IMG/VR virus record: IMGVR_UViG_3300042887_005898
Origin: an uncultured virus (IMG/VR IMGVR_UViG_3300042887_005898)
Lineage: Duplodnaviria > Heunggongvirae > Uroviricota > Caudoviricetes
Direction: 5' to 3' (one strand)
Length of the DNA: 20,000 nt
Part shown: piece by piece, positions 1,950 to 14,170 of the stretch
Layout of the letters: each line of letters begins with the position of its first letter
How positions within the stretch are numbered: position 1 is the stretch's first letter
The notes under the pieces: generated by a model
Database searches by the model: none
The model's input: the letters and a program-made list of their open reading frames with translations, nothing else
Told to the model about the DNA's origin: nothing
Position numbers and translations under genes: made by a program

Positions 1950-3611
1950 ATGCTTAAAAATATAATTGAAAAATATATAAATTCGGATAGTCGAAAGAAA
2001 ATTTCTTACTTAGAAAAAGAAATTACTAATCACTCTATACTATATAGTGAGTTCAAAAGAATCTCAAATCCCAATCTAAGCATTAGAAATAACATTTATA
2101 ACATTTATTATGATATAGATTCTATTATCTGTCCTGTTTGTCAGAATCAAAAAGTTGCTTGGAATGAAAAGGATTTTTGTTATAGAAAAACTTGTAGTTA
2201 TAAGTGTTCGGGTAAACTATTGAAAACTGGTAAAAAAGAATATAAGTTTCCAGAAATTGAATCAAAAGAACAATTTATTTCATTAGTTAGGCAAAACAAA
2301 GTTAAACTCACTTCGATTACTAAAACTTCTTACTATGAAGAAGTCAAAAACTATAGAGGTGAAACATTACAAGAGAAAACATTTAGATGGATTAATGAAC
2401 TAAATGATCAAATTTTATGTGACAAAAAAGATTGTCAAAATGAAGTAAGTTTTGTTAATTTCAGTAAAGGTTTTAGACAATTCTGCTCAGTTAAGTGTTC
2501 GTCATCATCTGATATAAAGATTTCAAAAGTTAAAGAAACTTGTCTAGAAAAATACAAAGTAGACAATGTTTCTAAAAGACAGCTACACATTGAAAGATAT
2601 AAAAGTATTCTGAGTAACTTTGATATCATTTCATATGATAGCTCATCTTTTGTTTTGTTTCATCATGATTGTAAAAATCAAATAGAGATAACAAGAAGAA
2701 TGATCTACGATAGAAACAACATGAATACTGAAATTTGTACACACTGTAATAAAATACAGAGTATGCAGTCAGGTTATGAGCTACAACTTAAACAGTGGTT
2801 GATTAACTTAGGTATTAACATCGATGAAAATAATAGGAAAATAATTTATCCAAAGGAGTTAGATTTGTTTCTACCCGACCACAATTTAGCGATTGAATTC
2901 AATGGATTATTCTGGCACTCAGAGAATTATGTTGGTAAGAATTACCATATAGACAAAACAAAACTTTGTGAAGAAAAGAATATCAAACTTATTCATATTT
3001 GGGAAGACGATTGGATTTACAAAAATGATATAGTAAAGTCAATTATAAGTAATAAATTAAAAATTAATCAGAGTAGAGTTTATGCTAGAAATTGTGAAGT
3101 AAGAGAAGTGACTGATGTAAAACTAGTAAAAGACTTTTTAAACAAAAATCATATACAAGGATATTGTAAATCACAGCACAAAATTGGATTATTTTATAAC
3201 AACGAACTTATTTCTTTGATGACTTTTGGGTTCAGAAAAACCAATTCTAAAAAAGAGTTTGAACTAATAAGGTTTTCAAACAAGAAATACTACACAGTTA
3301 TTGGCTCTGCGTCAAAACTATTTAGTTTCTTTGTTAATAAGTATCAACCAGAATTTATTTTATCCTATGCTGACATAAGTTTATTTGATGGGTCCTTATA
3401 TAATAGTCTTGGTTTCAAATTTATTCATAGAACAGAACCAAATTATTATTGGGTTGTTGATGGAATAAGGTATCACAGATGGGTGTTTAATAAAAAGAAA
3501 TTATTAGAGTCTGGTGGTAGTTCTAAGAAAACAGAAAAAGAAATTATGACAGATCGAGGTCATTTTAGAGTTTTTTCTTGTGGTCAAGATAGGTATGAGT
3601 TTACAAAATAA
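1950..3611 (+). CDS. free-standing homing-endonuclease-like protein: Cys-rich Zn-finger repeats, PD-(D/E)xK-like nuclease domain, C-terminal GNAT-like region
   Basis: CPVC..CSYKCS and C..C..FCSVKCS repeats; ELDLFLPDHNLAIEFNGLFWHS and LIHIWEDDW; NHIQG..ELIRF..SYAD..LYNSLGF; directly after nrdB. Confidence 0.7.
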   Translation: MLKNIIEKYINSDSRKKISYLEKEITNHSILYSEFKRISNPNLSIRNNIYNIYYDIDSIICPVCQNQKVAWNEKDFCYRKTCSYKCSGKLLKTGKKEYKFPEIESKEQFISLVRQNKVKLTSITKTSYYEEVKNYRGETLQEKTFRWINELNDQILCDKKDCQNEVSFVNFSKGFRQFCSVKCSSSSDIKISKVKETCLEKYKVDNVSKRQLHIERYKSILSNFDIISYDSSSFVLFHHDCKNQIEITRRMIYDRNNMNTEICTHCNKIQSMQSGYELQLKQWLINLGINIDENNRKIIYPKELDLFLPDHNLAIEFNGLFWHSENYVGKNYHIDKTKLCEEKNIKLIHIWEDDWIYKNDIVKSIISNKLKINQSRVYARNCEVREVTDVKLVKDFLNKNHIQGYCKSQHKIGLFYNNELISLMTFGFRKTNSKKEFELIRFSNKKYYTVIGSASKLFSFFVNKYQPEFILSYADISLFDGSLYNSLGFKFIHRTEPNYYWVVDGIRYHRWVFNKKKLLESGGSSKKTEKEIMTDRGHFRVFSCGQDRYEFTK

Positions 3612-3638
3612 AAAAATCATTAGGAAAGGAAACTTTTA

Positions 3639-3651
3639 TAATATATATTTG
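3639..3651 (+). promoter_or_regulatory. overlapping TAATATATA motif and Bacteroidota -7 element (TATATTTG) upstream of leader 1
   Basis: TAATATATA 3639-3647; TATATTTG 3644-3651 fits TAnnTTTG. Confidence 0.6.
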
Positions 3652-3673
3652 TATAACTTAAAATAGAAAAAAA

Positions 3674-3748
3674 ATGAAAGTTGTTAATAACATATCAATC
3701 ATAGGGAACGGCACTATAGCGGGTGGCCTTCTTTTGCTGATTGGTTAA
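3674..3748 (+). CDS. putative attenuator leader peptide 1 (MKVVNNISIIGNGTIAGGLLLLIG, 24 aa)
   Basis: ATG after an A-rich tract; codons 7-18 are ATA TCA ATC ATA GGG AAC GGC ACT ATA GCG GGT GGC; the 3' end is complementary to the downstream terminator. Confidence 0.75.
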   Translation: MKVVNNISIIGNGTIAGGLLLLIG

Positions 3749-3776
3749 GTATTGACTCTTTCATTCAAGATACTTT

Positions 3777-3807
3777 AAACCCAATCAGTGATGATTGGGT
3801 TTTTTTT
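3777..3807 (+). terminator. intrinsic terminator (attenuator) before tRNA array 1
   Basis: AAACCCAATCA-GTGA-TGATTGGGTTT, perfect 11 bp stem with GNRA loop, T8 at 3800-3807; 5' arm alternatively pairs with CTGATTGG at 3737-3744. Confidence 0.88.
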
Positions 3808-3816
3808 ATTTTATAT

Positions 3817-3890
3817 TGGTGAGTAGCTTAAACGGTAGAAGCACCTGTCTTATACACAGGAGAAAGTGGGATCGTTACCCACCTCACCAA
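3817..3890 (+). tRNA. tRNA-Ile(UAU)
   Basis: Acceptor TGGTGAG/CTCACCA; anticodon arm CCTGT-CT TAT AC-ACAGG; T-arm GTGGG-ATCGTTA-CCCAC. Confidence 0.9.
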
Positions 3891-3897
3891 CTAAACT

Positions 3898-3970
3898 GCA
3901 GAAGTGGTGTTAATGGTTAGCATGTGAGACTTCCACTCTCAAGGTGCCAGTTCGAATCTGGTCTTCTGCT
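3898..3970 (+). tRNA. tRNA-Gly(UCC)
   Basis: Acceptor GCAGAAG/CTTCTGC, U73; TGAGA-CT TCC AC-TCTCA; TTCGAAT T-loop. Confidence 0.93.
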
Positions 3971-3974
3971 CAAT

Positions 3975-4047
3975 GCGAGAGTAGCTCAATAGGTAGAGTA
4001 CCACCTTGCCAAGGTGGATGTTGCCGGATCGTACCCGGTCTCTCGCT
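3975..4047 (+). tRNA. tRNA-Gly(GCC)
   Basis: Acceptor GCGAGAG/CTCTCGC, U73; CCACC-TT GCC AA-GGTGG; T-loop ATCGTAC. Confidence 0.92.
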
Positions 4048-4060
4048 CTTTATAAATAAT

Positions 4061-4134
4061 GGGTCATTGGTGAAGCTGGCTATCACACAAGATTTGCAAT
4101 CTTGAGTCACGAGTTCGAAGCTCGTATGTATCCA
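4061..4134 (+). tRNA. tRNA-Ala(UGC), acceptor stem with a 1 nt bulge
   Basis: CAAGA-TT TGC AA-TCTTG; T-arm ACGAG-TTCGAAG-CTCGT; GGGTCAT pairs with ATG(T)ATCC and keeps G3:U70 and A73. Confidence 0.82.
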
Positions 4135-4139
4135 CAGAT

Positions 4140-4955
4140 TTAGAAATCAGATTTGAAGTATCTAAGCTCACTTTGAGCAAGTTGAGTATCACCTCCAGAG
4201 TATTCTACTAGTGAATTAAACCAAGATGTTCTTATGTCATTTCCTCTTTTTCGATGTCTATCATAAGCGTCTCTTAGAAGAAAAGCACCTGCTTTAATAT
4301 TTGTGATTTGATTATGTTCTTTGAACCCTAGCTTTTTAGCAACAAGATTAAAAGTTGCTGGCATTACTTGACAATAACCAAAAGCACCTGATCCAGCAGA
4401 GTTAGCGATAAATTGAAATCCTGATTCGTGGTCAACAACTCTAAAGAATATTGTATATGGGATTTTATACTTTTCGATTTCGTCAATCATTGTAAAGAAG
4501 ATATCATCAGGTAGTTTAACTAAATTTTGATAATGTGTCAAATTACAATCTCTTTTAATAATAAATTGAAGATACTCACGAGAACCCATAGTTTCTCTTA
4601 GCTGAGTTATAGTAGAATCTTTTCTGTCTAATAGAACATTCGAATTGTAAAGAATATTATTGATCTCTTCTAATTTAGATTCTAATGAGTAGATTTTTTC
4701 TGCTTTATCAGTGAATGATAACCATCTTCCAATTGAAAATAAACCAGTTGTCCAGAAAATAAAGGAGATAACTACAATAACGATTATTTTGTTATTTTTT
4801 AACAGTTGTCTCCAATTTATTTTTCTAAATTCTGGATAGATAAACCATTCTAATATATCGATTAATTGGTATCTAACATACTTTTCAAAAAGTTGATTAT
4901 TGACATGATTCATCAATAACCAACTGTGTAGTTTAATTAAATTTTTCTTAATCAT
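4140..4955 (-). CDS. membrane-anchored lytic transglycosylase (SLT-like)
   Basis: Hydrophobic helix, coiled coil, then HESGF...SAGSGAFGYCQVMPATF...NIKAGAFLL...YSGG; start codon uncertain. Confidence 0.8.
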   Translation of the reverse strand: MIKKNLIKLHSWLLMNHVNNQLFEKYVRYQLIDILEWFIYPEFRKINWRQLLKNNKIIVIVVISFIFWTTGLFSIGRWLSFTDKAEKIYSLESKLEEINNILYNSNVLLDRKDSTITQLRETMGSREYLQFIIKRDCNLTHYQNLVKLPDDIFFTMIDEIEKYKIPYTIFFRVVDHESGFQFIANSAGSGAFGYCQVMPATFNLVAKKLGFKEHNQITNIKAGAFLLRDAYDRHRKRGNDIRTSWFNSLVEYSGGDTQLAQSELRYFKSDF

Positions 4956-5680
4956 CTTAGTTCGTAGAGTTCGTTAATATTTAGTAGTCTATGCTCACAA
5001 TCAACAATTTGTTCTATATTACTTCTATGAAAATGTCCATAAAAATGTTTTTGTATCTTATTGTTTTCATTCAAGATATTCCACATTTTTGTCATTACGG
5101 TTCTTTCTTCGATAAGTTCTTCTTTTAGATTTTCATCGTCAGCACAAAATGTTTCTACTAGATTACCAAATCCCAATTTATTAGTTGGTAAACAAAAGTC
5201 AGGAGCAGTATGTGTAACAAGTATATCGATGCCTCTAAATTCTTTAATCAAATCTTCATTATAGGTAACTTTTTCGTCATACCAATAAGTTCTTCTCCTA
5301 CTCCCGTATCTTGCATATTTCATATTTTCAAGTATTCTTGGTTTTCTGTCAATACTAACAGCACCACCAACAAACAAGAAGTTTTTATTTTCTAAATTAA
5401 GAACTGTATAATCTGGTAATAATTCCAAATTACTATATTTATGTTGTCCTTTGAAAAAGTCTGGATTATCGTGATTTCCTCTTATTGCGTATAAGGTAAT
5501 ATTCTTCTTACTTAAAAAGTCGTTGAAACCTAGTAAAAATCTTGTATCGTTATCTTCATTGGTAAATCCAATACCAAAATCACCTACTTGAATAATGATA
5601 CAGTTATCGATTTTAGTTTTTTCGATATGTTTCATCAAGTAGTTAAAATTCCCATGTATGTCACCAAGTAATAAAATCAT
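4952..5680 (-). CDS. calcineurin-like metallophosphoesterase
   Basis: GDIHG, VGDFG, RGNHD, GGAVSID, THTAP, GHFH motifs; start moved to MILLLGD at 5680 because a promoter lies directly upstream. Confidence 0.88.
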   Translation of the reverse strand: MILLLGDIHGNFNYLMKHIEKTKIDNCIIIQVGDFGIGFTNEDNDTRFLLGFNDFLSKKNITLYAIRGNHDNPDFFKGQHKYSNLELLPDYTVLNLENKNFLFVGGAVSIDRKPRILENMKYARYGSRRRTYWYDEKVTYNEDLIKEFRGIDILVTHTAPDFCLPTNKLGFGNLVETFCADDENLKEELIEERTVMTKMWNILNENNKIQKHFYGHFHRSNIEQIVDCEHRLLNINELYELR

Positions 5681-5684
5681 AATA

Positions 5685-5716
5685 CAAAGATAAGGAAATT
5701 TTTTGGATATTTCAAA
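5685..5716 (-). promoter_or_regulatory. Bacteroidota housekeeping-sigma promoter (-33 TTTG, 20 nt spacer, -7 TATCTTTG)
   Basis: Minus strand TTTG at 5716-5713 and TATCTTTG at 5692-5685, 4 nt before the ATG. Confidence 0.75.
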
Positions 5717-5864
5717 TATCCTCTTTATGTGTGTGTGAAATGACATTCTCATTCCACCACTTTGTAAACTTTGAATTTGGAAAAATTTCTCTTAACTTTT
5801 CACCGACGATAAGACAAGTAAGTAGTAAAAGACCAGAAACTAAAATTATTGTTAGAATATCCAT
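5712..5864 (-). CDS. small membrane protein (50 aa, MDILTIILVSGLLLLTCLIVGEK...KFTKWWNENV...)
   Basis: ORF read manually, not in the track; N-terminal hydrophobic helix; fills the gap between neighbours. Confidence 0.6.
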   Translation of the reverse strand: MDILTIILVSGLLLLTCLIVGEKLREIFPNSKFTKWWNENVISHTHKEDI

Positions 5865-5868
5865 AATA

Positions 5869-6174
5869 CTAATTATTAATTAATGTTAATATACCAGAAA
5901 CTGAAAGAATTATTCCAGTTGATATCATTATATCTGATGTAGATTTAGAAATTTTATTAGTTTGATTTAATAAAATAGTAGTTCCTGTTAAAGCTAATCC
6001 AGTTGATAGAAAAATCACACTACTTTTTTTTGACACATCATTACTCTTTTTAAATTGTTCTTGTGCCGATTTAATAGATTGTGGATTACTATTATAGTAA
6101 TAGTTACTATTAGTCTTCTGTGAAATAACAGAAGTACTTAAAAAAAGTAGTAATATTGTAAATATTTTACTCAT
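5869..6174 (-). CDS. hypothetical exported or membrane protein
   Basis: Bacteroidota-like signal peptide ending ..SQ, two C-terminal hydrophobic segments. Confidence 0.65.
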   Translation of the reverse strand: MSKIFTILLLFLSTSVISQKTNSNYYYNSNPQSIKSAQEQFKKSNDVSKKSSVIFLSTGLALTGTTILLNQTNKISKSTSDIMISTGIILSVSGILTLINN

Positions 6175-6275
6175 TTAACAGTTTCAACTTTATCATAAGC
6201 TGCACATTTAGGATGTTTTGAAACACAAGAAAATAGAGCTATTGATAAGATTAGAAATATAATTACATTTTTCAT
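6171..6275 (-). CDS. small lipoprotein (34 aa, MKNVIIFLILSIALFSCVSKHPKCAAYDKVETVK)
   Basis: Manual ORF; lipobox LFSC; ATGA overlap with the next gene; TAATATATA at 6289-6281. Confidence 0.7.
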   Translation of the reverse strand: MKNVIIFLILSIALFSCVSKHPKCAAYDKVETVK

Positions 6276-6375
6276 ATTGTTATATATTAAAAATAACTAA
6301 AAAAGTTTTGCTCAAAAAATGAATTAAACTTAATTTACTTTATCAATAGAATAATTAAATAAAAAAAATTGTGAT

Positions 6376-7068
6376 ATGAAAATTGGATGGTTTGTTGGTA
6401 CAAAAACTTTCACTACTTCAGGAGAGTTAAAGAGTAAGCCTCAGCTTGATCTCTTAATTATGGAACCCGAAAAAGTTGGAGTCACTGATGAACACGGTAG
6501 TTATAAATATTGTCCAGCTTTTGCTATTTACACTAATCAAACTTTTTTACTAAGATCACCTTTTGATTTAGAATTAAATTTCTATAATAATGAAGTAAAT
6601 GTTTTATACTCTTCGATATCACCTAATGTTATCAAAGACCATCTTACAATTGATATGGAGAAAAATCCAATTGTTCAATTAGAACTTCATATTGGTTTTG
6701 TTGCTGATGAAACTTGTTTTATTGAACTGACAAGTGATCACTTTAGTACAAATCGTCCAAATAATCATGTAAGAGTTGTTCCTGGTACTTATGATATCTC
6801 AAGTTGGCAGAGACTTCTTAACTACTCGATTGAATGGACAGATACTTCAAAACCAATTTCAATTAAAAGAGGAGATCCACTTTTATATGTGAGGTTCAGA
6901 ACCAAAAATCCGAGTGAGAAGTTTGAACTAAAAAGAATTGAAATGACAGATGATTTATTAAAATCAGTTGCTAGATCACAACTTTCTAAATTTTATGTTT
7001 CAGGTAAAACTTGGACACTAATGAAACTTAATAAATTAATGAGACGAAAAATAAAATTTGTGAAATAA
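6376..7068 (+). CDS. hypothetical phage protein, possibly dUTPase-like beta fold
   Basis: 230 aa; CPA, LRSPFD, VPGTYDISSWQR and IKRGDPL motifs; no intact dUTPase motif set. Confidence 0.55.
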   Translation: MKIGWFVGTKTFTTSGELKSKPQLDLLIMEPEKVGVTDEHGSYKYCPAFAIYTNQTFLLRSPFDLELNFYNNEVNVLYSSISPNVIKDHLTIDMEKNPIVQLELHIGFVADETCFIELTSDHFSTNRPNNHVRVVPGTYDISSWQRLLNYSIEWTDTSKPISIKRGDPLLYVRFRTKNPSEKFELKRIEMTDDLLKSVARSQLSKFYVSGKTWTLMKLNKLMRRKIKFVK

Positions 7069-7094
7069 AAATTAACATTTAAGAAAATATAACT

Positions 7095-7150
7095 TATATT
7101 TGTAAAATAAATCGAAAAATACAAAACAAGGTAAGAATTTTTAATATATA
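7095..7150 (+). promoter_or_regulatory. tandem promoter elements upstream of leader 2
   Basis: TATATTTG at 7095-7102 and TAATATATA at 7142-7150; same layout as 19817-19890. Confidence 0.65.
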
Positions 7151-7157
7151 ATAAACA

Positions 7158-7265
7158 ATGAAAACAATGAATCTAAATATGACAAATTTGAATCTCACGG
7201 TGGTGAATACATTATGTATTAGAACCATGAGGTCGGGTATTGCCAAATTTAGAATTGTCTCATAA
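7158..7265 (+). CDS. putative attenuator leader peptide 2 (MKTMNLNMTNLNLTVVNTLCIRTMRSGIAKFRIVS, 35 aa)
   Basis: 20 of the first 25 codons encode M/T/N/V/C/I/R, the seven amino acids of array 2; AGGTCGGGT at 7230-7238 is complementary to the terminator 5' arm. Confidence 0.8.
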   Translation: MKTMNLNMTNLNLTVVNTLCIRTMRSGIAKFRIVS

Positions 7266-7292
7266 CATAGAGAATTAAGTCTAAAGATACAC

Positions 7293-7324
7293 AAACCCGA
7301 CCTTGAAAAAGAGTCGGGTTTTTT
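7293..7324 (+). terminator. intrinsic terminator (attenuator) before tRNA array 2
   Basis: AAACCCGAC-CTT-GAAA-AAG-(A)-GTCGGGTTT followed by a T-run. Confidence 0.88.
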
Positions 7325-7342
7325 ATTTTTGGATAAAAAGAT

Positions 7343-7415
7343 GGTTCCTTCATCTAACTGGAAAAGATATCTCTCTTCTAAAGAGATTATAGAGGTTCGA
7401 ATCCTCTAGGAACTA
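7343..7415 (+). tRNA. tRNA-Arg(UCU)
   Basis: GGTTCCT/AGGAACT; TCTCT-CT TCT AA-AGAGA; AGAGG-TTCGAAT-CCTCT. Confidence 0.9.
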
Positions 7416-7423
7416 CTAAAAAT

Positions 7424-7496
7424 TGACCAGAAGCTAGTACGGTACAGCGGCGGTTTGTTAAACCGAGGATAGTGGGATCGTTACCCACCTGGTAAG
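7424..7496 (+). tRNA. tRNA-Asn(GUU)
   Basis: TGACCAG/CTGGTAA (one mismatch), G73; CGGT-TT GTT AA-ACCG; T-arm GTGGG-ATCGTTA-CCCAC. Confidence 0.82.
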
Positions 7497-7503
7497 CTAA
7501 AAT

Positions 7504-7586
7504 GTACAGATGGTAGAGTGGCGAATACAACAGCCTGCAAAACTGTAGTCGAAAGACCGTCGGGGGTTCGAGTCCCTCTCTGTACT
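7504..7586 (+). tRNA. tRNA-Cys(GCA) with a long variable arm
   Basis: GTACAGA/TCTGTAC, U73; ACAGC-CT GCA AA-ACTGT; variable hairpin GTC-GAAA-GAC; TTCGAGT T-loop. Confidence 0.82.
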
Positions 7587-7592
7587 CAAAAT

Positions 7593-7665
7593 AGTCCTGT
7601 AGCTCAATCGGGGGAGCGCCACTCTTACATAGTGGAGGAAGTCGGATCGTAACCGACCGGGACTA
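7593..7665 (+). tRNA. tRNA-Val(UAC)
   Basis: AGTCCTG/CGGGACT; CCACT-CT TAC AT-AGTGG; GTCGG-ATCGTAA-CCGAC. Confidence 0.9.
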
Positions 7666-7672
7666 CTAAAAT

Positions 7673-7745
7673 TGTCAGTTAGCTCATTTGGTAGAGCACT
7701 TGTCTGATACACAAGAGGTGCCGGGATCGTAACCCGGACTGACAA
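7673..7745 (+). tRNA. tRNA-Ile(GAU)
   Basis: TGTCAGT/ACTGACA; CTTGT-CT GAT AC-ACAAG; CCGGG-ATCGTAA-CCCGG. Confidence 0.9.
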
Positions 7746-7751
7746 CTTAAT

Positions 7752-7825
7752 GCATTCTTCGTATAGTTGGTCTATTACTCTGGATTTGTAACCCAGAAAC
7801 GCCAGTTCGAATCTGGCAGAATGCT
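7752..7825 (+). tRNA. tRNA-Thr(UGU)
   Basis: GCATTCT/AGAATGC; CTGGA-TT TGT AA-CCCAG; GCCAG-TTCGAAT-CTGGC. Confidence 0.88.
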
Positions 7826-7836
7826 CTAATCAAAAT

Positions 7837-7908
7837 AGCGATATAGTGTAAAGGTTAGCTCACTTGGCTCATATCCTTGAGGATCAGGTTCGATTCCTGA
7901 TATCGCTA
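7837..7908 (+). tRNA. tRNA with CAU anticodon (Met most likely), weak anticodon stem
   Basis: AGCGATA/TATCGCT; CTTGG-CT CAT AT-CCTTG has two T-T mismatches; TCAGG-TTCGATT-CCTGA. Confidence 0.72.
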
Positions 7909-7987
7909 CAATATTATCTCAGAGTTAATAATGTGTCATGTTTTTTTATAATCTACATGTTTTTTCTTATAGAAAAATATATAAATT

Positions 7988-8716
7988 ATGGAAAAAATTA
8001 AAACACTATTTATAAGTGATGTTCACCTTGGAAGTTCTAGTTCAAATGCATCTAAATTATTACAGGTATTTAAATTATATGAATTTGAAAACTTAATCAT
8101 AATTGGTGACTTTATAGATATGACTTCACTGAAGAGAAGATTTTTTTGGACTCAAGATCACTCGACTGTTATTCAAAAAGTTCTTAGATTTTCTAGAAAA
8201 GAAGTCAATGTAGTTTATATCATTGGAAATCATGACTTCTATATACGAAATCTTATAGATGAAGGGCCAATTAACATAGGTGAAATTAAAATATGTGATG
8301 AACATATCTATGAAACAATCAGTGGTGAAAAAATATTTATAACACACGGTGATTGTTTTGATGGATTTATTAGATTACATCCTTTTTTGTACTTTCTTGG
8401 TGATAAAGCTTATTCACTTTCGATCTCCATTAATAAGTATTATAATATTATTAGAGGTCTTTTTGGGTTTCAATATTGGAGTTTATCTTCTTATTTAAAG
8501 ACTAAAGTAAAAAATGTAGTAAAGTTTGTTACTGAATATAGAACCATGTCTGAGAAAAAATTGAAAGAAGTCAATTGTGATTCTATAATGATTGGACATA
8601 CTCACACACCTGAAATTCAACTCGGTAGTTATTATAATACTGGTGATTTTTGTGAGAGCTGTAGCTATATTATAGAAAGCATCGAAGGTCAAATAGAATT
8701 AAGATATATTAGATGA
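7988..8716 (+). CDS. LpxH/PlcP-like metallophosphoesterase (UDP-2,3-diacylglucosamine hydrolase family)
   Basis: FISDVHLG, GDFID, GNHD, HGDCFD, YWSLSSYLKTKVKNVV, GHTH, YYNTGDFCESCS. Confidence 0.87.
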   Translation: MEKIKTLFISDVHLGSSSSNASKLLQVFKLYEFENLIIIGDFIDMTSLKRRFFWTQDHSTVIQKVLRFSRKEVNVVYIIGNHDFYIRNLIDEGPINIGEIKICDEHIYETISGEKIFITHGDCFDGFIRLHPFLYFLGDKAYSLSISINKYYNIIRGLFGFQYWSLSSYLKTKVKNVVKFVTEYRTMSEKKLKEVNCDSIMIGHTHTPEIQLGSYYNTGDFCESCSYIIESIEGQIELRYIR

Positions 8717-9675
8717 AAATATTATATGGTGTACAAGGAACAGGTAATGGTCACATCACTCGTTCAATAAAAATGATTACTACTCTAAAGAGTATGGGAT
8801 TCGAAGTTGATACTTTAGTTTCAGGTAGTAATTATCAAATCAATCTTCCTTTTGAATGTAAATTTAATTTTAAGGGTTTTAATTTTTCTTTTAATAAAGA
8901 TGGTAGTATAAATAAATTTAATACATTAATAGAAAATGACTTTTATCAATTCTTAAAAGATACTAAAATTGATTTGAAACAATATGATACTCTAATTACA
9001 GATTTTGAACCAATTTTAGCATGGTCGGCAAAGTTTAAAGAACGAGAGATATGGGGTATAGGAAATCAATATTCTTTTTTATCAAAGAATTCTCCAAGAC
9101 CTACAAAAAAAGATTTAATTGGTGAGACTGTTCTAAAATGGATGGCACCTGTAACAAACCCAATAGGTATTCATTTTCAAAGATATGACGATTTTATCGA
9201 ATTGCCGATAATAAGAGATGATATCATTTATGGTAAACTAGAAGATTTTGGTCACTATACTGTTTATCTACCGAATGTTAATTTGAAAGAATTAGTTAAT
9301 GAACTTAATAGTTTTACTAAAAATAGATTTCATATATTTAGTAACACATACTACTATAATACTGAATATAGAAATTGTAGAATATATCCTTTAGATAAAT
9401 TTATGTTTCAGAAAAGTTTTTTGACATCTACCGGCGTGATAACAACTGGTGGTTTTCAAACAACATCTGAGTCACTATATTGTGGTAAAAAATTACTAGT
9501 AATACCAATAAACAATCAATATGAACAAATGTGTAATGGTGAGTCTCTTAGTAGATTAGGTATCAAAGTTGGTCAGTTATCAGATATAGGGAATTTTCTA
9601 ACTTCATGTAAAAATGTTAAATTAACTTGGGAAGATCCTACGAATAAAATAATATCAATGATTACTAAAAGTTAA
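8713..9675 (+). CDS. GT-B glycosyltransferase (MJ1255/VC2487-like family)
   Basis: MKILYGVQGTGNGHITRS, ITDFEP, GGFQTTSESLYCGKKLLVIP..QYEQ..N; ATGA overlap with the upstream gene. Confidence 0.87.
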   Translation: MKILYGVQGTGNGHITRSIKMITTLKSMGFEVDTLVSGSNYQINLPFECKFNFKGFNFSFNKDGSINKFNTLIENDFYQFLKDTKIDLKQYDTLITDFEPILAWSAKFKEREIWGIGNQYSFLSKNSPRPTKKDLIGETVLKWMAPVTNPIGIHFQRYDDFIELPIIRDDIIYGKLEDFGHYTVYLPNVNLKELVNELNSFTKNRFHIFSNTYYYNTEYRNCRIYPLDKFMFQKSFLTSTGVITTGGFQTTSESLYCGKKLLVIPINNQYEQMCNGESLSRLGIKVGQLSDIGNFLTSCKNVKLTWEDPTNKIISMITKS

Positions 9676-12457
9676 ATTTAGCAGACAGAGTAATAGTTTG
9701 ACCAAATTGAACTTTTTGCCAATCGTTATCACCTAAATTAAATCTTTGATTATTATTCAAATCCTGAAAATAAATCAAATCCTGTGCTAAAATATCTTTA
9801 ATATTTAATTTTAACTCACAATTCTTAATTTTCTTTGATATTTGAAAATCTAAGACATGTCTTTCATTCTCCCATACACTTGGCTCTTGTACATTACCAA
9901 CTATATAAATTCTTGGACCAACTATATTATAAGAAATATTCGTTGAAAAGGTATTATCAGTATTATTCCAGTATAATCCAGTGTTAAAAACATAAGGTGA
10001 TTGTCCTTGTAGTGGTCTATTACCACCAGAACCGATTACTTCATCCATCATCACATTAGATTTTATAAATGCTAAATTTGAATTTATTGATAGGTTTTTA
10101 TAAATTTTTGATTTAATATCGATTTCAACACCAATGTTTTTTGCTTTATATACATTGTCATAATAAAGCTCTGGTGAACCAGATGTTCCTGTTCTATTAA
10201 TTATTTCTATCGGATTTATGAATTCTTTATAGAAACCAGAAACAGAGAATACTTGATTATTTGATGGGTAATACTCAAATCTCAAATCATAATTGTTTAT
10301 TATTGTTCTTTTTAGATAAGGATTTCCAGAAGTGATATTATCTTGTATGAAGTTATAAAAACTAAAAGGAGCTAGCTCTCTAAATTCTGGACGCGAAACC
10401 GTTTTTGAGTAGCTAGTTCTAACTTTAAATTTGTCGACATTAAAACTCAGATTAATACTTGGTAATAAATCTACAACTGTAGAATCAATTGTCTTTTTTA
10501 AGTTACTACCAAACTCAATATAGTTAAACCTTTGATTGTATGATTCAATTCGTAATCCAACATTTAAATTTACATTTTTAGTTTTGGTATCTATCATCAA
10601 ATAACCAGCATTTAATGTGGAATTAGCATCATAACTATCATCTACATTTGTTGACTCATCTAATTTGAATCCGCCTTGACCATTTTGAAGTAGTCCCATA
10701 TTTTCTATTGAAAAGATCTCATCTGTGTTTAATAGTAATAGTTCGCTATTGAATGTACTTCCAGTTGGTCGATATTGAGAGAATCCAAAGTTCCTGCTTG
10801 TAAAGTCTCTATTTCTATATTGAAAGAAGTAACCTGATTTAATTTCGCTTTTAATTTGACTTATTTCTAAATCTTTTGCATAATCTACTCTACCACCATA
10901 AACTTTTTCATTACTCTTAGACCAAAACATATTACCAGCAGCAGTTGGTATTGTACCATTAGTCTGAATTACTGCAACATACTCTTCATTAGGATCATTT
11001 TCTAAAAGTGAATATTTTCTATAAACAATTCTTCTTAGGTTTGGTATTTCTCTCTTAATATCACTGTGATTTATAGACCATTCAATTTTTGATTTGCTGA
11101 ACTCATGATTTCCTATTAATTGTTGTGTTAGTAGATTATTTTGAGTGTACCATAAGTTGGTTGACTTCTCCCACTGATGTGGATCATTATCCATTTCTCT
11201 TACACCATATCTTTTATTCACTTTGTCTTCAGAATTGATAGAATATAAGTTTTTGAACTTAATTGAGTTTTTATCATTGATTTTGAATTTGAAGTTTAAT
11301 AAACCAGTATTTAGAACATTTTGAGTAAATACTGAATCTCTTAGAATCATTTTTGTGATCACTTCGGTTTCTGATTCTTCAAATTCTTTTCTAACTATAT
11401 TATTTTGATTGTAGTTCAATTGATAATTATAATTGAAAACAAACCCAAATGAAGATTTATCTTTTCTTATCTTCCAGTTTCTACCAAATCCGAATTGTAA
11501 ATTCTGATTTAATGGTGACTTTATGTTTTTAGTAGACCAATCATTTTTTATTAATTTTGATAATTCTGCTTTTTCATTTTTGTTTAAATCTGAAAATTCT
11601 TCTGTACTTGGTAATCCGTTTGGTAATGATCTATAATCAGTTCCAAACCCAATAAAGTCACCTTTTGAACAATTATAAGTGTTGAAATTTCTAAAAGTAG
11701 AAATTGTATTGTATGACTGACCAATTTGAACATAAGAAAAATCATTATCCTTTATATCTTGTGTATTGATATTAATAATTCCTCCAGCAAACTCACCTGG
11801 TAGATCTGATGATGCTGTCTTCTGAATAAGAATATTATCTATCATATTTGAGGAAAATATATCAAATGAAAATGCTCTTTTATCACTTTCTGAACTCGGT
11901 AGAGGCGAACCATTAAGTAAACCAAAGTTGTATCTATCATTTAGACCTCTTATAATGACAAATTTGTTGTCTTGTATGGAAGCACCACTTATTCTTTTTA
12001 ATACATCTGAAGCTTTTGAATCAGGAGTTTTCTTGAATATTTCTGATGTTGTTCCGTCTACGACAGAACTGGAGTTCTTTTGTGTTAGTATCAAATCAAC
12101 TTGTGTGTCTTTGTCTCTAGTCGCGAAAATTTTGAGTTCTTTTGAGTCTGTTTTATCATCTCTTTTCATTTTGATGACTATTGAACCAGTCGGACTAGAT
12201 TCAACGATATTCACTTTGACAGAGTAGTCTAAGTAGGTGACATATCTAATTTCAATTTCATGCGATCCAGTCGGTAAAATTAGTTCAAATTTACCATCAA
12301 TATCCGAGACTGTTCCAGTGTTTAGTTTAGGACAATATACAACTGCACCAATAAGTGACTCGTTTGAGGTTGAGTCACTTATTGTACCAATCAATTTTGC
12401 CTGACTTAGTAGTTGTGTAGAAACTAAAATTAAAAAAGACAATAAAACTGACCTCAT
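9665..12457 (-). CDS. TonB-dependent outer-membrane receptor with N-terminal carboxypeptidase-regulatory-like domain
   Basis: Signal peptide; G..SDIDGKF; plug motif IIRGLNDRYN; SRPEFRELAPF; DLRFEYYP; RPLQGQSPY; terminal aromatic residue (KFNF). Confidence 0.93.
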   Translation of the reverse strand: MRSVLLSFLILVSTQLLSQAKLIGTISDSTSNESLIGAVVYCPKLNTGTVSDIDGKFELILPTGSHEIEIRYVTYLDYSVKVNIVESSPTGSIVIKMKRDDKTDSKELKIFATRDKDTQVDLILTQKNSSSVVDGTTSEIFKKTPDSKASDVLKRISGASIQDNKFVIIRGLNDRYNFGLLNGSPLPSSESDKRAFSFDIFSSNMIDNILIQKTASSDLPGEFAGGIININTQDIKDNDFSYVQIGQSYNTISTFRNFNTYNCSKGDFIGFGTDYRSLPNGLPSTEEFSDLNKNEKAELSKLIKNDWSTKNIKSPLNQNLQFGFGRNWKIRKDKSSFGFVFNYNYQLNYNQNNIVRKEFEESETEVITKMILRDSVFTQNVLNTGLLNFKFKINDKNSIKFKNLYSINSEDKVNKRYGVREMDNDPHQWEKSTNLWYTQNNLLTQQLIGNHEFSKSKIEWSINHSDIKREIPNLRRIVYRKYSLLENDPNEEYVAVIQTNGTIPTAAGNMFWSKSNEKVYGGRVDYAKDLEISQIKSEIKSGYFFQYRNRDFTSRNFGFSQYRPTGSTFNSELLLLNTDEIFSIENMGLLQNGQGGFKLDESTNVDDSYDANSTLNAGYLMIDTKTKNVNLNVGLRIESYNQRFNYIEFGSNLKKTIDSTVVDLLPSINLSFNVDKFKVRTSYSKTVSRPEFRELAPFSFYNFIQDNITSGNPYLKRTIINNYDLRFEYYPSNNQVFSVSGFYKEFINPIEIINRTGTSGSPELYYDNVYKAKNIGVEIDIKSKIYKNLSINSNLAFIKSNVMMDEVIGSGGNRPLQGQSPYVFNTGLYWNNTDNTFSTNISYNIVGPRIYIVGNVQEPSVWENERHVLDFQISKKIKNCELKLNIKDILAQDLIYFQDLNNNQRFNLGDNDWQKVQFGQTITLSAKFNF

Positions 12458-14016
12458 TGTTTAATTATATTTTTAAAAACTTTTTCATTTACTTGAACAG
12501 TGTAAATACCATAGTCTAAACTTGATAAGTTTATTTCTGTACTATTAAAACCTTTATTTATATTTACAATCTGACCTAAGTGATTATAAACCTTCACAAT
12601 TATCGGACCATCTAATTTTATGTTTACAACTCCTAATGTTGGATTAGGATAAATAATCAAACTTTGGTCTAAATCATTATAAACATTATTAATTAATCCC
12701 AATTTTGAATGTGTAAAGTCAGCATTATTTGATACAATTGAATTTTCGTTAAGTCTAGCATCTGGATTAGAATTAAATATATCTACCCAATTAATTTCTG
12801 AAACAGACATTATTGAATCATTTTGATTAGTGGAAAAGAATTCATAGAAACTCGCTAGTGAAGTCACACAATTATTTGGTATGTTTGATAAAACATTATT
12901 TGAAAAAACAAGAGAACCGTTAGTTACATTAGATTCTGTAGCTGTTCCTTCAATTGATAACCCTTTTTCCCAACCTGTCACTAAAGAATTAAAAACTGAG
13001 ATAGAAGAATTTCTTCTGATTCTAAAAGCTTTTTCAAATTTTTCACCAACAGGTAAAACTTGAGATCCATCACCAAGTGGACCAACTATTGTAAAATTTG
13101 AAAACACGGCCGCGGTTTGTGGTAAATTAGATGAACCGGTTGCATCATTATCACTTTCAAAACAGTTTGAATCACCAGGAGCATCGTATCTTGTGTTGTC
13201 ACGAATTGCTAATCCAAACTGAACATTACCTCTATATCCAAAGTCTGTATCAAAGTCATCATCGATACCTTTGTAGGCGATTAAGTGTTTACAGTTCACA
13301 GTACCACCAAACCACTCAAATGAGTCATCACCTGAAAATGATACTTGTACAAAATCAATTATAGTCAATGAACCGACTGAACCAAAAGTAATACCATTTA
13401 TTTCTTTATTTGGCTCAAGTGGAATGCCACCAAATTCAACTCTAACATATCTTAAAATACCTGAGTTATCAGAATCATCACTACCACCATATTGTGTGTT
13501 AGAAGATGGTGTTATTCCCTCAATGTTTGCGAATCCTCCTGGTTGATTATTAACTGCTTTACCTAAAATAACCAATCCTCCCCAATCTCCTTCAGCTCTT
13601 AAACCGATCTCTTCGTTTGATGTGAAAATAATTGGTTGATCTTGTGTTCCGTCAGCGATTATTTTTGAACCTTTAGTTATGATAAGAGTTCCTTGTGTTG
13701 AGTAATCACCTCTTATGATTGTTCCAGGCAGAATTGTTAGTGTTGCATTATTTGTTACATATACTTTATTTTGCAAAAGTATTACACCACTTAATGTAGT
13801 ATTACTGGTAATGTCATTTGATAATACAGTATTTGTTTGTGGATAATCTGTATTTTCTGGATCAAAATTAGACCAACCAGATGTCCAGTTAGTAGCAGGA
13901 GTATTATCTGTTACCGGAAATGCACCTTTGTAAGAAGTTTGATCCCAGAAGGAATTTTGGCAAATTACTAAATTAGTAAAAGCTAAAAAAAGAATTAAAA
14001 TTGATAATCTTTTCAT
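12454..14016 (-). CDS. secreted beta-helix-like protein with a type IX secretion (T9SS type A) C-terminal sorting domain
   Basis: Signal peptide from MKRLSIL (14016); PIIFTS..GDWGGLVILG..DNSGILRYVRVEFGG..GDDSFEWFGGTVN; C-terminal IYPNP...YNHLGQ...GIYTVQV...KNIIKQ. Confidence 0.87.
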   Translation of the reverse strand: MKRLSILILFLAFTNLVICQNSFWDQTSYKGAFPVTDNTPATNWTSGWSNFDPENTDYPQTNTVLSNDITSNTTLSGVILLQNKVYVTNNATLTILPGTIIRGDYSTQGTLIITKGSKIIADGTQDQPIIFTSNEEIGLRAEGDWGGLVILGKAVNNQPGGFANIEGITPSSNTQYGGSDDSDNSGILRYVRVEFGGIPLEPNKEINGITFGSVGSLTIIDFVQVSFSGDDSFEWFGGTVNCKHLIAYKGIDDDFDTDFGYRGNVQFGLAIRDNTRYDAPGDSNCFESDNDATGSSNLPQTAAVFSNFTIVGPLGDGSQVLPVGEKFEKAFRIRRNSSISVFNSLVTGWEKGLSIEGTATESNVTNGSLVFSNNVLSNIPNNCVTSLASFYEFFSTNQNDSIMSVSEINWVDIFNSNPDARLNENSIVSNNADFTHSKLGLINNVYNDLDQSLIIYPNPTLGVVNIKLDGPIIVKVYNHLGQIVNINKGFNSTEINLSSLDYGIYTVQVNEKVFKNIIKQ

Positions 14017-14170
14017 AAATAAAGTTTTTTTTTCAACTTTATATATCATCCAGAAATCAAAAGGAACAGTTAATATTTTGATTATTACATCGAAATAATC
14101 ATGTAAAATCAGACCAATAAAGGCACTCAGTAATATATTAAGAAACTGCTATCAATCAGTAAACTCAGTG

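What the first reader, a model, noticed from the sequence alone, without database searches (positions are those of the whole stretch)
3674..4134. Attenuator 1: Ile(AUA)/Gly/Ala leader upstream of tRNA-Ile(UAU), Gly(UCC), Gly(GCC), Ala(UGC)
Codons 7-18 contain 9 of 12 Ile/Gly/Ala: ATA x3, ATC, GGG, GGC x2, GGT, GCG. Every array anticodon has at least one readable codon here, including GC-rich codons unexpected in an AT-rich genome. The leader end CTGATTGG-TTAAGTA-TTGA (3737-3755) can pair with TCAA..TACTTTAA..CCAATCAG (3765-3788), which removes the terminator 5' arm (3777-3787). A ribosome reaching the stop at 3746-3748 would block this pairing and favour termination.
Basis: partly seen in the sequence, partly recalled or inferred. 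Interest (0 to 1): 0.9.

Follow-up and report, generated by a model that had tools for sequence, protein, structure and literature searches.

The report
Leader-peptide attenuator gating phage tRNA genes
A tiny translated test gene, written in the codons that the four downstream phage tRNAs read, sits inside a switchable transcription stop signal, so the phage probably makes these tRNAs only when ribosomes read those codons slowly.

Summary

**In the window:** a 24-codon ORF (3674-3748) is followed by an intrinsic terminator (3777-3807). The terminator ends 9 nt before tRNA-Ile(UAU)-Gly(UCC)-Gly(GCC)-Ala(UGC).

**Codons:** 9 of codons 7-18 are Ile/Gly/Ala. Four of them (GGG, GGC x2, GCG) belong to a set that makes up 0.68% of codons in the window's own genes (P=1.7e-5).

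**RNA structure:** the RNA can form all three pairings of a classical trp-type attenuator:
- 1:2, codons 7-10 with 3738-3745;
- 2:3, the antiterminator, -12.9 kcal/mol;
- 3:4, the terminator, -14.4 kcal/mol.

**Relatives:** there are 15 distinct homologous leaders, from the window, two phage records and 12 metagenome contigs. All keep the ORF and the terminator, and the first ATA codon is invariant. The 3' half of the peptide is not conserved, yet stays complementary to each leader's own terminator arm in 11 of 15.

**Leader matches array:** two ~635-kb phage genomes carry 8 and 7 such units before different tRNA arrays (Gln, Glu/Tyr, His/Phe/Trp, Pro/Asp, Lys and others). The true leader-to-array pairing is the single best of 40,320 and of 5,040 permutations.

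**Novelty:** six literature searches found no description of this control for tRNA genes. This scan has noted the same kind of element before on other DNA. There is no experimental evidence yet.

The parts
3622..3664 (+). Candidate promoter region. It holds an upstream element shared by the leader units (3622-3647), a TATATTTG motif at 3644-3651, and the only sigma-70-like site on the + strand between the upstream gene and the tRNA (hexamers at 3635 and 3659-3664).
   Evidence: The assignment is an inference: TANNTTTG is not enriched in the window (38 found, 34.3 expected).
3674..3748 (+). Leader ORF, 24 codons plus stop, peptide MKVVNNISIIGNGTIAGGLLLLIG.
   Evidence: The ORF is kept in 15 distinct homologs at 24-28 codons. 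The first ATA codon (columns 19-21) is invariant in alignment A1.
3692..3727 (+). Regulatory codons 7-18. Nine of 12 are Ile/Gly/Ala: ATA x3, ATC, GGG, GGC x2, GGT, GCG.
3694..3701 (+). Segment 1 core (AUCAAUCA, codons 7-10). It pairs with segment 2 in the hairpin that spans the whole ORF (3674-3764).
   Evidence: MFE of 3674-3810 is -45.5 kcal/mol, z -6.45; 3674-3776 is -30.3 kcal/mol, z -3.95. In 15 of 15 homologs segment 2 pairs with codons 6-14.
3735..3755 (+). Segment 2, the 5' strand of the antiterminator. It covers the last three sense codons, the stop codon 3746-3748 and 7 nt beyond.
   Evidence: (duplex with the terminator 5' arm -13.1 kcal/mol against shuffles at -8.0 +/- 1.7, p=0.009).
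3765..3791 (+). Segment 3: the 3' strand of the antiterminator, which is also the terminator 5' arm (3777-3787) plus the loop (3788-3791).
3792..3807 (+). Segment 4: the terminator 3' arm (3792-3802), running into an 8-U tract (3800-3807).
3817..4133 (+). The regulated tRNA array: Ile(UAU), Gly(UCC), Gly(GCC), Ala(UGC). It starts 9 nt after the U-tract.
7158..7909 (+). Sister unit in the same window. Its parts are a 35-codon leader (7158-7265, rich in Thr/Met/Val/Ile/Arg/Asn with one Cys), a terminator (7293-7321) and the array Arg-[extra tRNA]-Cys-Val-Ile-Thr-Met (7343-7909).
   Evidence: Its antiterminator duplex is -19.2 kcal/mol, p=0.001. One search adds a tRNA at 7424-7496.

Best explanation
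This is a ribosome-mediated (trp-type, leader-peptide) transcription attenuator. It controls a phage tRNA operon instead of an amino-acid biosynthesis operon.

Transcription starts upstream of 3674. The only route into the tRNA genes runs through the terminator at 3777-3807. A ribosome translates the 24-codon leader while RNA polymerase moves on. There are three outcomes.

1. Decoding is slow at ATA, GGG/GGA, GGC/GGT or GCG/GCA, the codons read by the four tRNAs of the array. The ribosome stalls within codons 7-17 and covers or separates segment 1. Segment 2 (3735-3755) is then free to pair with segment 3 (3765-3788). This antiterminator prevents the terminator hairpin, and polymerase reads into the tRNA genes.
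2. Decoding is fast. The ribosome reaches the stop codon at 3746-3748 and masks segment 2. Segments 3 and 4 form the terminator and transcription ends at about 3807.
3. There is no translation. The 1:2 and 3:4 hairpins form, and transcription also terminates.

The result is negative feedback: the products, tRNAs, are the very molecules whose supply is sensed.

Shown here by computation: the ORF, its codon bias, the three alternative pairings, their retention in relatives, and the match between leader and array. Inferred: that the ORF is translated, that ribosomes stall at these codons, that the terminator is efficient, and what the physiological trigger is.
For: **1. Anatomy.** ORF 3674-3748. 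Terminator -14.4 kcal/mol. Antiterminator -12.9 kcal/mol (z -3.7). The 1:2 hairpin lies within an MFE of -45.5 kcal/mol (z -6.45). The U-tract ends 9 nt before the tRNA, and no + strand promoter-like site was found in 3665-3816.

**2. Codon bias.** In the window's genes GGG, GGC and GCG make up 0.26%, 0.18% and 0.13% of codons, yet the leader holds four of them (P=1.7e-5). Counts over the 15 distinct homologous leaders against the window's genes (chi-square p of 9e-7, 2e-23 and 9e-17; the sequences are related, so the p values are inflated):
- Ile ATA/ATT/ATC: 41/11/12 against 164/246/83.
- Gly GGC/GGA/GGG/GGT: 25/17/11/7 against 10/102/14/170.
- Ala GCG/GCA/GCT/GCC: 24/14/1/0 against 7/52/77/6.

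**3. Conservation.** A scan keyed only on the tRNA-Ile(UAU) 3' end returned 21 metagenome loci, 19 of them with enough upstream DNA to judge. Sixteen of the 19 have the leader ORF plus terminator.

**4. RNA-level constraint.**
- The 3' half of the peptide differs between subfamilies (LLLLIG, IREWLSYGI, VNDCVMSKSF, RFIERLSYVM, NVSYWVDSVM). Even so, 11 of 15 leaders keep a segment complementary to their own terminator 5' arm at p<=0.05 against 1000 dinucleotide shuffles.
- Read: L001 has GUG paired with CAC where L134 and L148 have GAG paired with CUC. The terminator 3' arm changes to match (UGAC to AGAC).
- In 15 of 15, segment 2 pairs with codons 6-14 in the MFE fold.

**5. Generality.** Over all leader types in the window and two relatives, 11 of 12 have such a segment (p<=0.045 each; Fisher 5.6e-13 for all 12; 6.5e-8 for 7 non-homologous leaders of one genome).

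**6. Leader matches array.**
- LR745206.1: 8 leaders. Each scores highest with its own array, and the true pairing is the single best of 40,320 permutations.
- LR756504.1: 7 leaders. The true pairing is the single best of 5,040 permutations.
- Examples: MTTTQQIQQQQINQTD before Gln x3; ...YYYEAYEE... before Glu/Glu/Glu/Tyr; ...FWHFHF... before His/Phe.
- In LR756504.1 the Ile(UAU) array also holds Glu and Val tRNAs, and its leader reads NIAIVEIAVIGGAEEGV.
Against: - **No experimental evidence.** One metatranscriptome run gave only two 151-nt contigs at depth 2, so transcription, translation and termination are all unshown.
- **Weak antiterminators in some homologs.** Four of 15 do not beat shuffles (p 0.14-0.24). 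G001_IleGly fails (p 0.16).
- **No consensus antiterminator.** Its register differs between subfamilies. RNAalifold on alignment A1 finds only the terminator, with 0 compensatory pairs. MAFFT misaligned the window's 3' arm in that alignment.
- **The leader is not obligatory.** Three of 19 assessable loci lack the leader ORF. L135 and L150 also lack the terminator; L143 keeps it.
- **Codon choice may be structural in part.** The GC-rich Gly/Ala codons also form the apical stem of the 1:2 hairpin.
- **Energetics.** The terminator is 1.5 kcal/mol more stable than the antiterminator, so read-through must be decided kinetically.
- **Unknowns.** Host, RNA polymerase and promoter are not known. The promoter scan covers sigma-70 types only.
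Confidence: 0.83

Rival explanations
1. The attenuator is real, but it reports general translation status, amino-acid starvation or the stage of infection. It does not report the supply of the cognate tRNAs specifically.
For: A stalled ribosome cannot tell a shortage of tRNA from a shortage of amino acid or of charging. The leaders also hold codons that their arrays do not serve.
Against: Each of 8 leaders in one genome ranks its own array first. In the second genome, under the strict array rule, 5 of 7 rank theirs first and the other 2 rank it second. Synonymous codon choice is skewed towards the array's anticodons, for example ATA over ATT and no GCC or GCT. A sensor that reads only amino acids would not need that skew.
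Confidence: 0.1
2. The ORF is an ordinary small-protein gene with its own terminator, and the tRNAs are made by constitutive leak-through.
For: The N-terminus (MK.(L/V)NNIS) is conserved. The peptide is hydrophobic.
Against: The C-terminal half is not conserved as protein but stays complementary to the terminator. Composition follows the downstream tRNAs in 15 units of two genomes. A strong terminator 9 nt before the only downstream genes would make little sense.
Confidence: 0.04
3. A translation-independent RNA switch, such as direct tRNA binding in the manner of a T-box, or merely the terminator of the upstream gene (1950-3611) with a chance ORF.
For: Terminator/antiterminator alternatives are also the output stage of T-box riboswitches. 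The hairpin does lie downstream of a gene.
Against: No T-box or other riboswitch hit appears, even at E<=1. Only sub-threshold terminator-like hits were found. The start and stop codons and the open frame are kept in 15 distinct homologs. In many relatives the unit follows another tRNA rather than this gene.
Confidence: 0.03

Closest known systems
Leader-peptide transcription attenuators of enterobacterial amino-acid operons (trpL, hisL, leuL, pheL). Named from established knowledge, recalled.
   Same: A short translated ORF carries a run of regulatory codons. Four RNA segments give 1:2, 2:3 (antiterminator) and 3:4 (intrinsic terminator). The stop codon is placed so that a ribosome which finishes the leader masks segment 2.
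   Different: The regulated genes are tRNA genes, so the sensed molecule is the product itself. The element lies in a phage genome. The leader is tailored to a mixed tRNA array, and its synonymous codon choice matches particular anticodons (ATA for UAU). There is no sequence or Rfam similarity.
Multivalent attenuators: ilvGMEDA (Ile/Leu/Val) and thr (Thr/Ile) leaders. Recalled.
   Same: One leader mixes codons of several amino acids, so several signals are integrated.
   Different: In those operons the mix reflects a shared biosynthetic pathway. Here it reflects which tRNA genes happen to lie downstream, and it changes when the array changes.
pheST attenuator with the pheM leader. Recalled.
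   Same: Attenuation by a leader peptide controls a component of the translation apparatus according to cognate tRNA charging.
   Different: Its target is a protein-coding synthetase operon of a bacterium, not tRNA genes. E. coli's own tRNA-Phe genes pheU and pheV are monocistronic with 3-4 nt leaders (passages read in PMC7049720), so they are not a precedent.
T-box riboswitches
   Same: They sense tRNA status and act through competing terminator and antiterminator hairpins.
   Different: A T-box binds uncharged tRNA directly, has no ORF, and regulates synthetase and amino-acid genes. No T-box match was found here.

Membership tests
Ribosome-mediated (leader-peptide) transcription attenuator | A short ORF with start and stop codons lies upstream of the regulated genes, on the same strand. 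| tested here: met
   ORF 3674-3748. It is kept open in 15 distinct homologs.
Ribosome-mediated (leader-peptide) transcription attenuator | The ORF is enriched in codons cognate to what is regulated. | tested here: met
   9 of 12 core codons (P=1.7e-5). Permutation tests gave 1 of 40,320 and 1 of 5,040.
Ribosome-mediated (leader-peptide) transcription attenuator | An intrinsic terminator lies between the leader and the regulated genes, with no promoter after it. | tested here: met
   Stem 3777-3802 plus 8 U, ending 9 nt before the tRNA. No sigma-70-like + strand site in 3665-3816. Other promoter types were not covered.
Ribosome-mediated (leader-peptide) transcription attenuator | Mutually exclusive pairings 1:2, 2:3 and 3:4. 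| tested here: met
   for the window. 2:3 is significant in 11 of 15 homologs, and 1:2 is present in 15 of 15.
Ribosome-mediated (leader-peptide) transcription attenuator | Covariation supports the alternative helices. | tested here: inconclusive
   RNAalifold on A1 gave the terminator only, with 0 compensatory pairs. Compensatory changes across segments 2, 3 and 4 were read by eye (L001 against L134/L148; window against L142/L145). These are few events.
Ribosome-mediated (leader-peptide) transcription attenuator | Read-through rises when ribosomes stall at the regulatory codons. | not testable with these tools
   This needs reporter, 3'-end mapping or ribosome-profiling data. The one RNA run found is uninformative.
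T-box riboswitch | Match to the T-box covariance model (stem I, specifier, T-box sequence). | tested here: not met
   No hit at the gathering threshold over the whole window, nor at E<=1 over 3500-8000.
Curated Rfam leader families (Trp, His, Leu, Thr, Phe leaders and others) | Match to any Rfam leader or cis-regulatory model. | tested here: not met
   The only match was rnk_pseudo at 26.7 bits against a gathering score of 55, E 0.17, which is chance level.

The most novel reading that the evidence does not exclude
Each tRNA block of these giant phages sits behind its own codon-matched attenuator. Together the attenuators would form a distributed sensor of decoding capacity that reads the supply of particular isoacceptors (for example AUA-reading tRNA-Ile, GGC-reading tRNA-Gly), not of amino acids. 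A given tRNA set would then be switched on only when the host pool for its codons runs short. That would include the case where the host pool is depleted during infection by host shut-off or by tRNA-cleaving defence nucleases, which would make the system an on-demand counter-defence.
Probability: 0.3. Interest if true: 0.92.

Novelty: new variant of a known kind. Interest (0 to 1): 0.85.

Why it matters
Phage tRNA genes are usually discussed as a fixed supplement to the host's pool. How their expression is controlled is essentially unknown.

A leader-peptide attenuator in front of tRNA genes would be the first case where this classical switch regulates the sensed molecule itself, which closes a direct feedback loop on decoding capacity. 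It would show that giant phages meter each tRNA set separately.

It also gives a sequence-only way to predict which codons a phage treats as limiting in its unknown host. And it supplies compact natural parts that report the availability of specific tRNAs.

Six searches of the paper library found no description of this control. Papers outside that library could not be searched.

Tried and rejected
1. **14-base leader motif against viral contigs.** After filtering, no new locus showed the leader pattern (only the already known L001 did). The motif is too unspecific.

2. **Whole-genome search.** No genome is held for this window. I used record handles instead.

3. **RNA evidence.**
   - One metatranscriptome run was found, kept as contigs.
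   - One 151-nt contig is identical to 3605-3755. Another covers 3878-4026 with 2 differences.
   - Depth is 2, and nothing spans 3756-3877.
   - This shows neither transcription nor a 3' end and cannot test the model.

4. **RNAalifold on the 15-leader alignment.** It recovers only the terminator and no compensatory pairs. MAFFT misaligned the window's 3' arm, and the antiterminator register differs between subfamilies. I did not pursue a single consensus antiterminator.

5. **Promoter motifs.**
   - The Bacteroidota-type motif TANNTTTG (recalled) is not enriched: 38 found against 34.3 expected. Its presence at 3644 and 7095 is only a hint.
   - A strict pattern for the shared upstream element hit only 6 of 159 loci.

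6. **A recalled precedent.** I thought E. coli pheU and pheV might have attenuator-like leaders. Passages read in PMC7049720 say they are monocistronic with 3-4 nt leaders, so I dropped the idea. The 'tRNA operon' mention in PMC3082878 concerns supercoiling of a promoter.

7. **tRNA pattern against genome contigs.** It gave 0 matches, so there is no host or prophage lead.

8. **Scripts 29 and 34** crashed on my own bugs. I reran them.

Full report
**What is there.** The window looks like part of a giant phage of a Bacteroidota-type host.
- It carries ribonucleotide reductase, an SLT lysozyme domain, a T9SS sorting-domain protein and a TonB-receptor-like gene.
- Its only extended DNA match is to the 634,780-bp uncultured phage LR745206.1.
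- It holds two tRNA arrays.

The finding covers the first array. After the stop codon of gene 1950-3611 comes an A/T-rich stretch. Then follows a 24-codon ORF, 3674-3748, encoding MKVVNNISIIGNGTIAGGLLLLIG. Next is an intrinsic terminator: stem 3777-3802 and eight U to 3807. Nine bases later comes tRNA-Ile(UAU), followed by Gly(UCC), Gly(GCC) and Ala(UGC). The simple scan finds no sigma-70-like site on the + strand between 3665 and 3816. As far as that scan can show, transcripts of the tRNAs must therefore pass the terminator.

**Checking the observation.** I compared this with the codon usage of the window's 13 long ORFs.
- Ile/Gly/Ala make up 17.1% of residues. Eleven of 23 leader codons gives P=6.5e-4.
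- GGG, GGC, GCG and GCC together make up 0.68% of codons. Four or more in 23 codons gives P=1.7e-5.

The proposed antiterminator 3737-3788 folds as described at -12.9 kcal/mol, and 0 of 200 shuffles fold as well. The terminator 3777-3807 folds at -14.4 kcal/mol.

**A fuller anatomy.** Folding 3674-3810 gives -45.5 kcal/mol (z -6.45). The whole ORF forms a long hairpin in which codons 7-10 (AUCAAUCA, 3694-3701) pair with UGAUUGGU (3738-3745). That second strand is the same one that can pair with the terminator's 5' arm. The element therefore has the four segments of a classical attenuator:
- 1:2, which sequesters the antiterminator strand when nothing is translated;
- 2:3, the antiterminator;
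- 3:4, the terminator.

Geometry, inferred from usual ribosome footprints:
- A ribosome stalled with its A site on codons 7-17 leaves 3737 onward free and keeps segment 1 away from it.
- A ribosome at the stop codon 3746-3748 covers segment 2.

**Homologs of this leader.** LR745206.1 has the same unit before Ile(UAU)-Gly-Met-Gly. An IMG/VR contig has it before Ile(UAU)-Gly(UCC).

I then scanned metagenome contigs with a pattern taken only from the 3' end of the tRNA, so the scan does not presuppose a leader. It returned 21 loci.
- Two are truncated: L139 and L149.
- Of the 19 that can be judged, 16 have the leader ORF plus terminator.
- L135 and L150 have neither.
- L143 keeps the terminator but has no ATG-started ORF of 15 or more codons.

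With duplicates removed there are 15 distinct leaders of 24-28 codons. In their alignment the start codon and the first ATA codon are invariant.

Synonymous codon use is far from that of the window's genes:

| Amino acid | Codons | 15 leaders | Window genes |
|---|---|---|---|
| Ile | ATA / ATT / ATC | 41 / 11 / 12 | 164 / 246 / 83 |
| Gly | GGC / GGA / GGG / GGT | 25 / 17 / 11 / 7 | 10 / 102 / 14 / 170 |
| Ala | GCG / GCA / GCT / GCC | 24 / 14 / 1 / 0 | 7 / 52 / 77 / 6 |

The leaders are related by descent, so the chi-square p values overstate independence.

The favoured codons are those read by UAU, GCC, UCC and UGC. One caveat applies: the GC-rich Gly/Ala codons also form the apical stem of the 1:2 hairpin, so structure may share in that choice.

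**RNA-level constraint.** The C-terminal half of the peptide is not conserved between subfamilies. Yet in 11 of 15 leaders the region upstream of the terminator holds a segment that pairs with that leader's own terminator 5' arm better than 95% of 1000 dinucleotide shuffles. The other four give p 0.14-0.24.

The segment always lies in the 3' part of the ORF and ends 1-15 nt before the stop codon. Its register differs between subfamilies. That is why RNAalifold on the alignment finds only the terminator and no compensatory pairs.

Within subfamilies, compensating changes can be read:
- L001 has GUG in segment 2, CAC in segment 3 and UGAC in segment 4.
- L134 and L148 have GAG in segment 2 and CUC in segment 3; segment 4 is AGAC in L134 and GGAC (a G-U pair) in L148.
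- The window has A-U at a position where L142 and L145 have G-C in the terminator and G-U in the antiterminator.

These are few events, so I rate covariation as suggestive only. In 15 of 15 leaders the MFE fold of the stretch from the ATG to just before the terminator pairs segment 2 with codons 6-14 (z from -1.4 to -4.7).

**The same design before other arrays.** This is the strongest evidence.

In the window itself, a second unit (leader 7158-7265, terminator 7293-7321) precedes Arg-Cys-Val-Ile-Thr-Met. Its leader is MKTMNLNMTNLNLTVVNTLCIRTMRSGIAKFRIVS. It contains AGGUCGGGU, a perfect complement of its terminator arm (-19.2 kcal/mol, p=0.001).

I mapped all tRNAs of LR745206.1 (61 Rfam matches) and fetched the clusters. 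This gave eight leader units:

| Array | Leader, or the relevant part of it |
|---|---|
| Ile/Gly | homolog of the window's leader |
| Glu/Tyr | SYESYYEE |
| His/Phe/Trp | HKNFSKSHKWF |
| Lys | MKTKLKYKR (its hairpin lacks a U-tract, so this one is uncertain) |
| Arg/Ser | SKSSSRSSSMS |
| Asn/Arg/Leu/Val/Ile/Thr | not listed here |
| Pro/Asp | APVNPQPQDQDP |
| Gln x3 | MTTTQQIQQQQINQTD |

I fixed each array beforehand as the ARAGORN tRNAs up to the next leader or a gap of more than 170 nt. On that basis every leader scores highest with its own array, and the true assignment is the single best of 40,320 permutations.

LR756504.1 is a more distant 636-kb phage with 45 tRNA matches. It has seven units. 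The true assignment is again the single best of 5,040, under both a strict and a relaxed array rule. In that genome the Ile(UAU) tRNA sits in an array with Glu, Ala, Val and Gly, and the leader reads NIAIVEIAVIGGAEEGV. The leader has followed the array.

Across 12 units of all types, 11 have a significant complement of the terminator arm (Fisher 5.6e-13 overall; 6.5e-8 for seven non-homologous units of one genome).

Some tRNAs have no leader. These include the initiator-like tRNA-Met genes and several singletons.

**Mechanism and rivals.** The best reading is trp-type attenuation in which slow decoding of the array's own codons opens the terminator. I put it at about 0.83.
- The main uncertainty within that reading is the signal. 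A ribosome cannot tell a lack of tRNA from a lack of amino acid. The synonymous skew towards the array's anticodons argues for tRNA-specific tuning.
- An independent small-protein gene, a chance ORF at another gene's terminator, or a T-box-like switch are each unlikely. The reasons are the conserved frame, the unconserved C-terminal peptide that still complements the terminator, the leader-array match, and the absence of any Rfam riboswitch or leader hit even at E<=1.

**Comparison with what is known.** In mechanism it works like the trp, his, leu and pheA attenuators. Because it senses several amino acids, it also resembles the ilvGMEDA and thr leaders. All of these are named from established knowledge. 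It meets the family's sequence-level criteria, and the functional criterion cannot be tested here.

What is new is the target: tRNA genes, so the product is the sensed molecule. The phage setting and the isoacceptor-level codon choice are also new.

Six full-text searches found nothing describing leader-peptide attenuation of tRNA genes. I saw only search listings and abstract starts, plus passages of PMC3082878 and PMC7049720. Subscription-only and old literature is not covered.

This scan's own earlier notes describe the same kind of element in other phage genomes. They are unchecked AI notes on other DNA. I did not use them as evidence, and they appeared only after my analysis.

**Verdict.** It is a new variant of a known kind, and of high interest pending experiment.

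Noticed in passing
window 7158-7909: A second leader (35 codons), terminator (7293-7321) and tRNA array (Arg-Cys-Val-Ile-Thr-Met) of the same design. The leader is rich in Thr, Met, Val, Ile, Arg and Asn and holds a single Cys codon. Homologous units occur in LR745206.1 (L123) and the IMG/VR contig (L129).
   Followed up: partly
window 7424-7496: Rfam finds an extra tRNA (30.4 bits, just above the gathering score) that ARAGORN misses, between tRNA-Arg and tRNA-Cys. By eye its anticodon loop reads GUU (Asn), which would account for the five Asn codons in leader 2.
   Followed up: partly
window 3622-3647 and 7125-7150; L001 about 1810-1860: An upstream element of the type GGNAA..AAACTTTTTAATATATAA precedes most leader units. 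It also directly precedes a leaderless initiator-like tRNA-Met in LR745206.1. It is a candidate phage-specific promoter, often lying downstream of a TATATTTG motif.
   Followed up: partly
L001 about 2185-2253: Between the Glu/Tyr leader's terminator and the first tRNA-Glu lies a tRNA-like sequence. By eye it has a GUA (Tyr) anticodon loop and a short variable arm. Neither ARAGORN nor the Rfam search called it.
   Followed up: no
L122 2637-2709: A 9-codon Lys-rich ORF (MKTKLKYKR) is followed by a strong hairpin that overlaps its stop codon but has no U-tract, just before four tRNA-Lys genes. It may be a variant switch working by a different logic.
   Followed up: no
L124 1865-1938; L152, L154, L156, L158: ARAGORN reports several tRNAs with irregular anticodon loops, of 4 or 2 bases ('gtag', 'tcta', 'tt', 'at'), in both giant phage genomes. 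They could be frameshift or suppressor tRNAs, or miscalls.
   Followed up: no
L153, L154 (LR756504.1): Three different leaders share the codons GGT GTA TAT (G-V-Y) as their antiterminator strand. Each faces an ATATAC(A)ACCC sequence at the foot of its terminator. This looks like a reused module.
   Followed up: partly
L121 / L129, between tRNA-Gly and tRNA-Ala; L001 3600-5900: Protein-coding ORFs interrupt the Ile-Gly...Ala arrays in relatives, and the Ala and Gly(GCC) tRNAs lie beyond them. They may be mobile insertions that split an attenuator-controlled array. The ORFs were not examined.
   Followed up: no
window 9665-14049: A TonB-dependent-receptor-like gene (CarboxypepD_reg, Plug and barrel domains) and a protein with a T9SS C-terminal sorting domain lie in a phage-like context. 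This hints at a Bacteroidota host.
   Followed up: no
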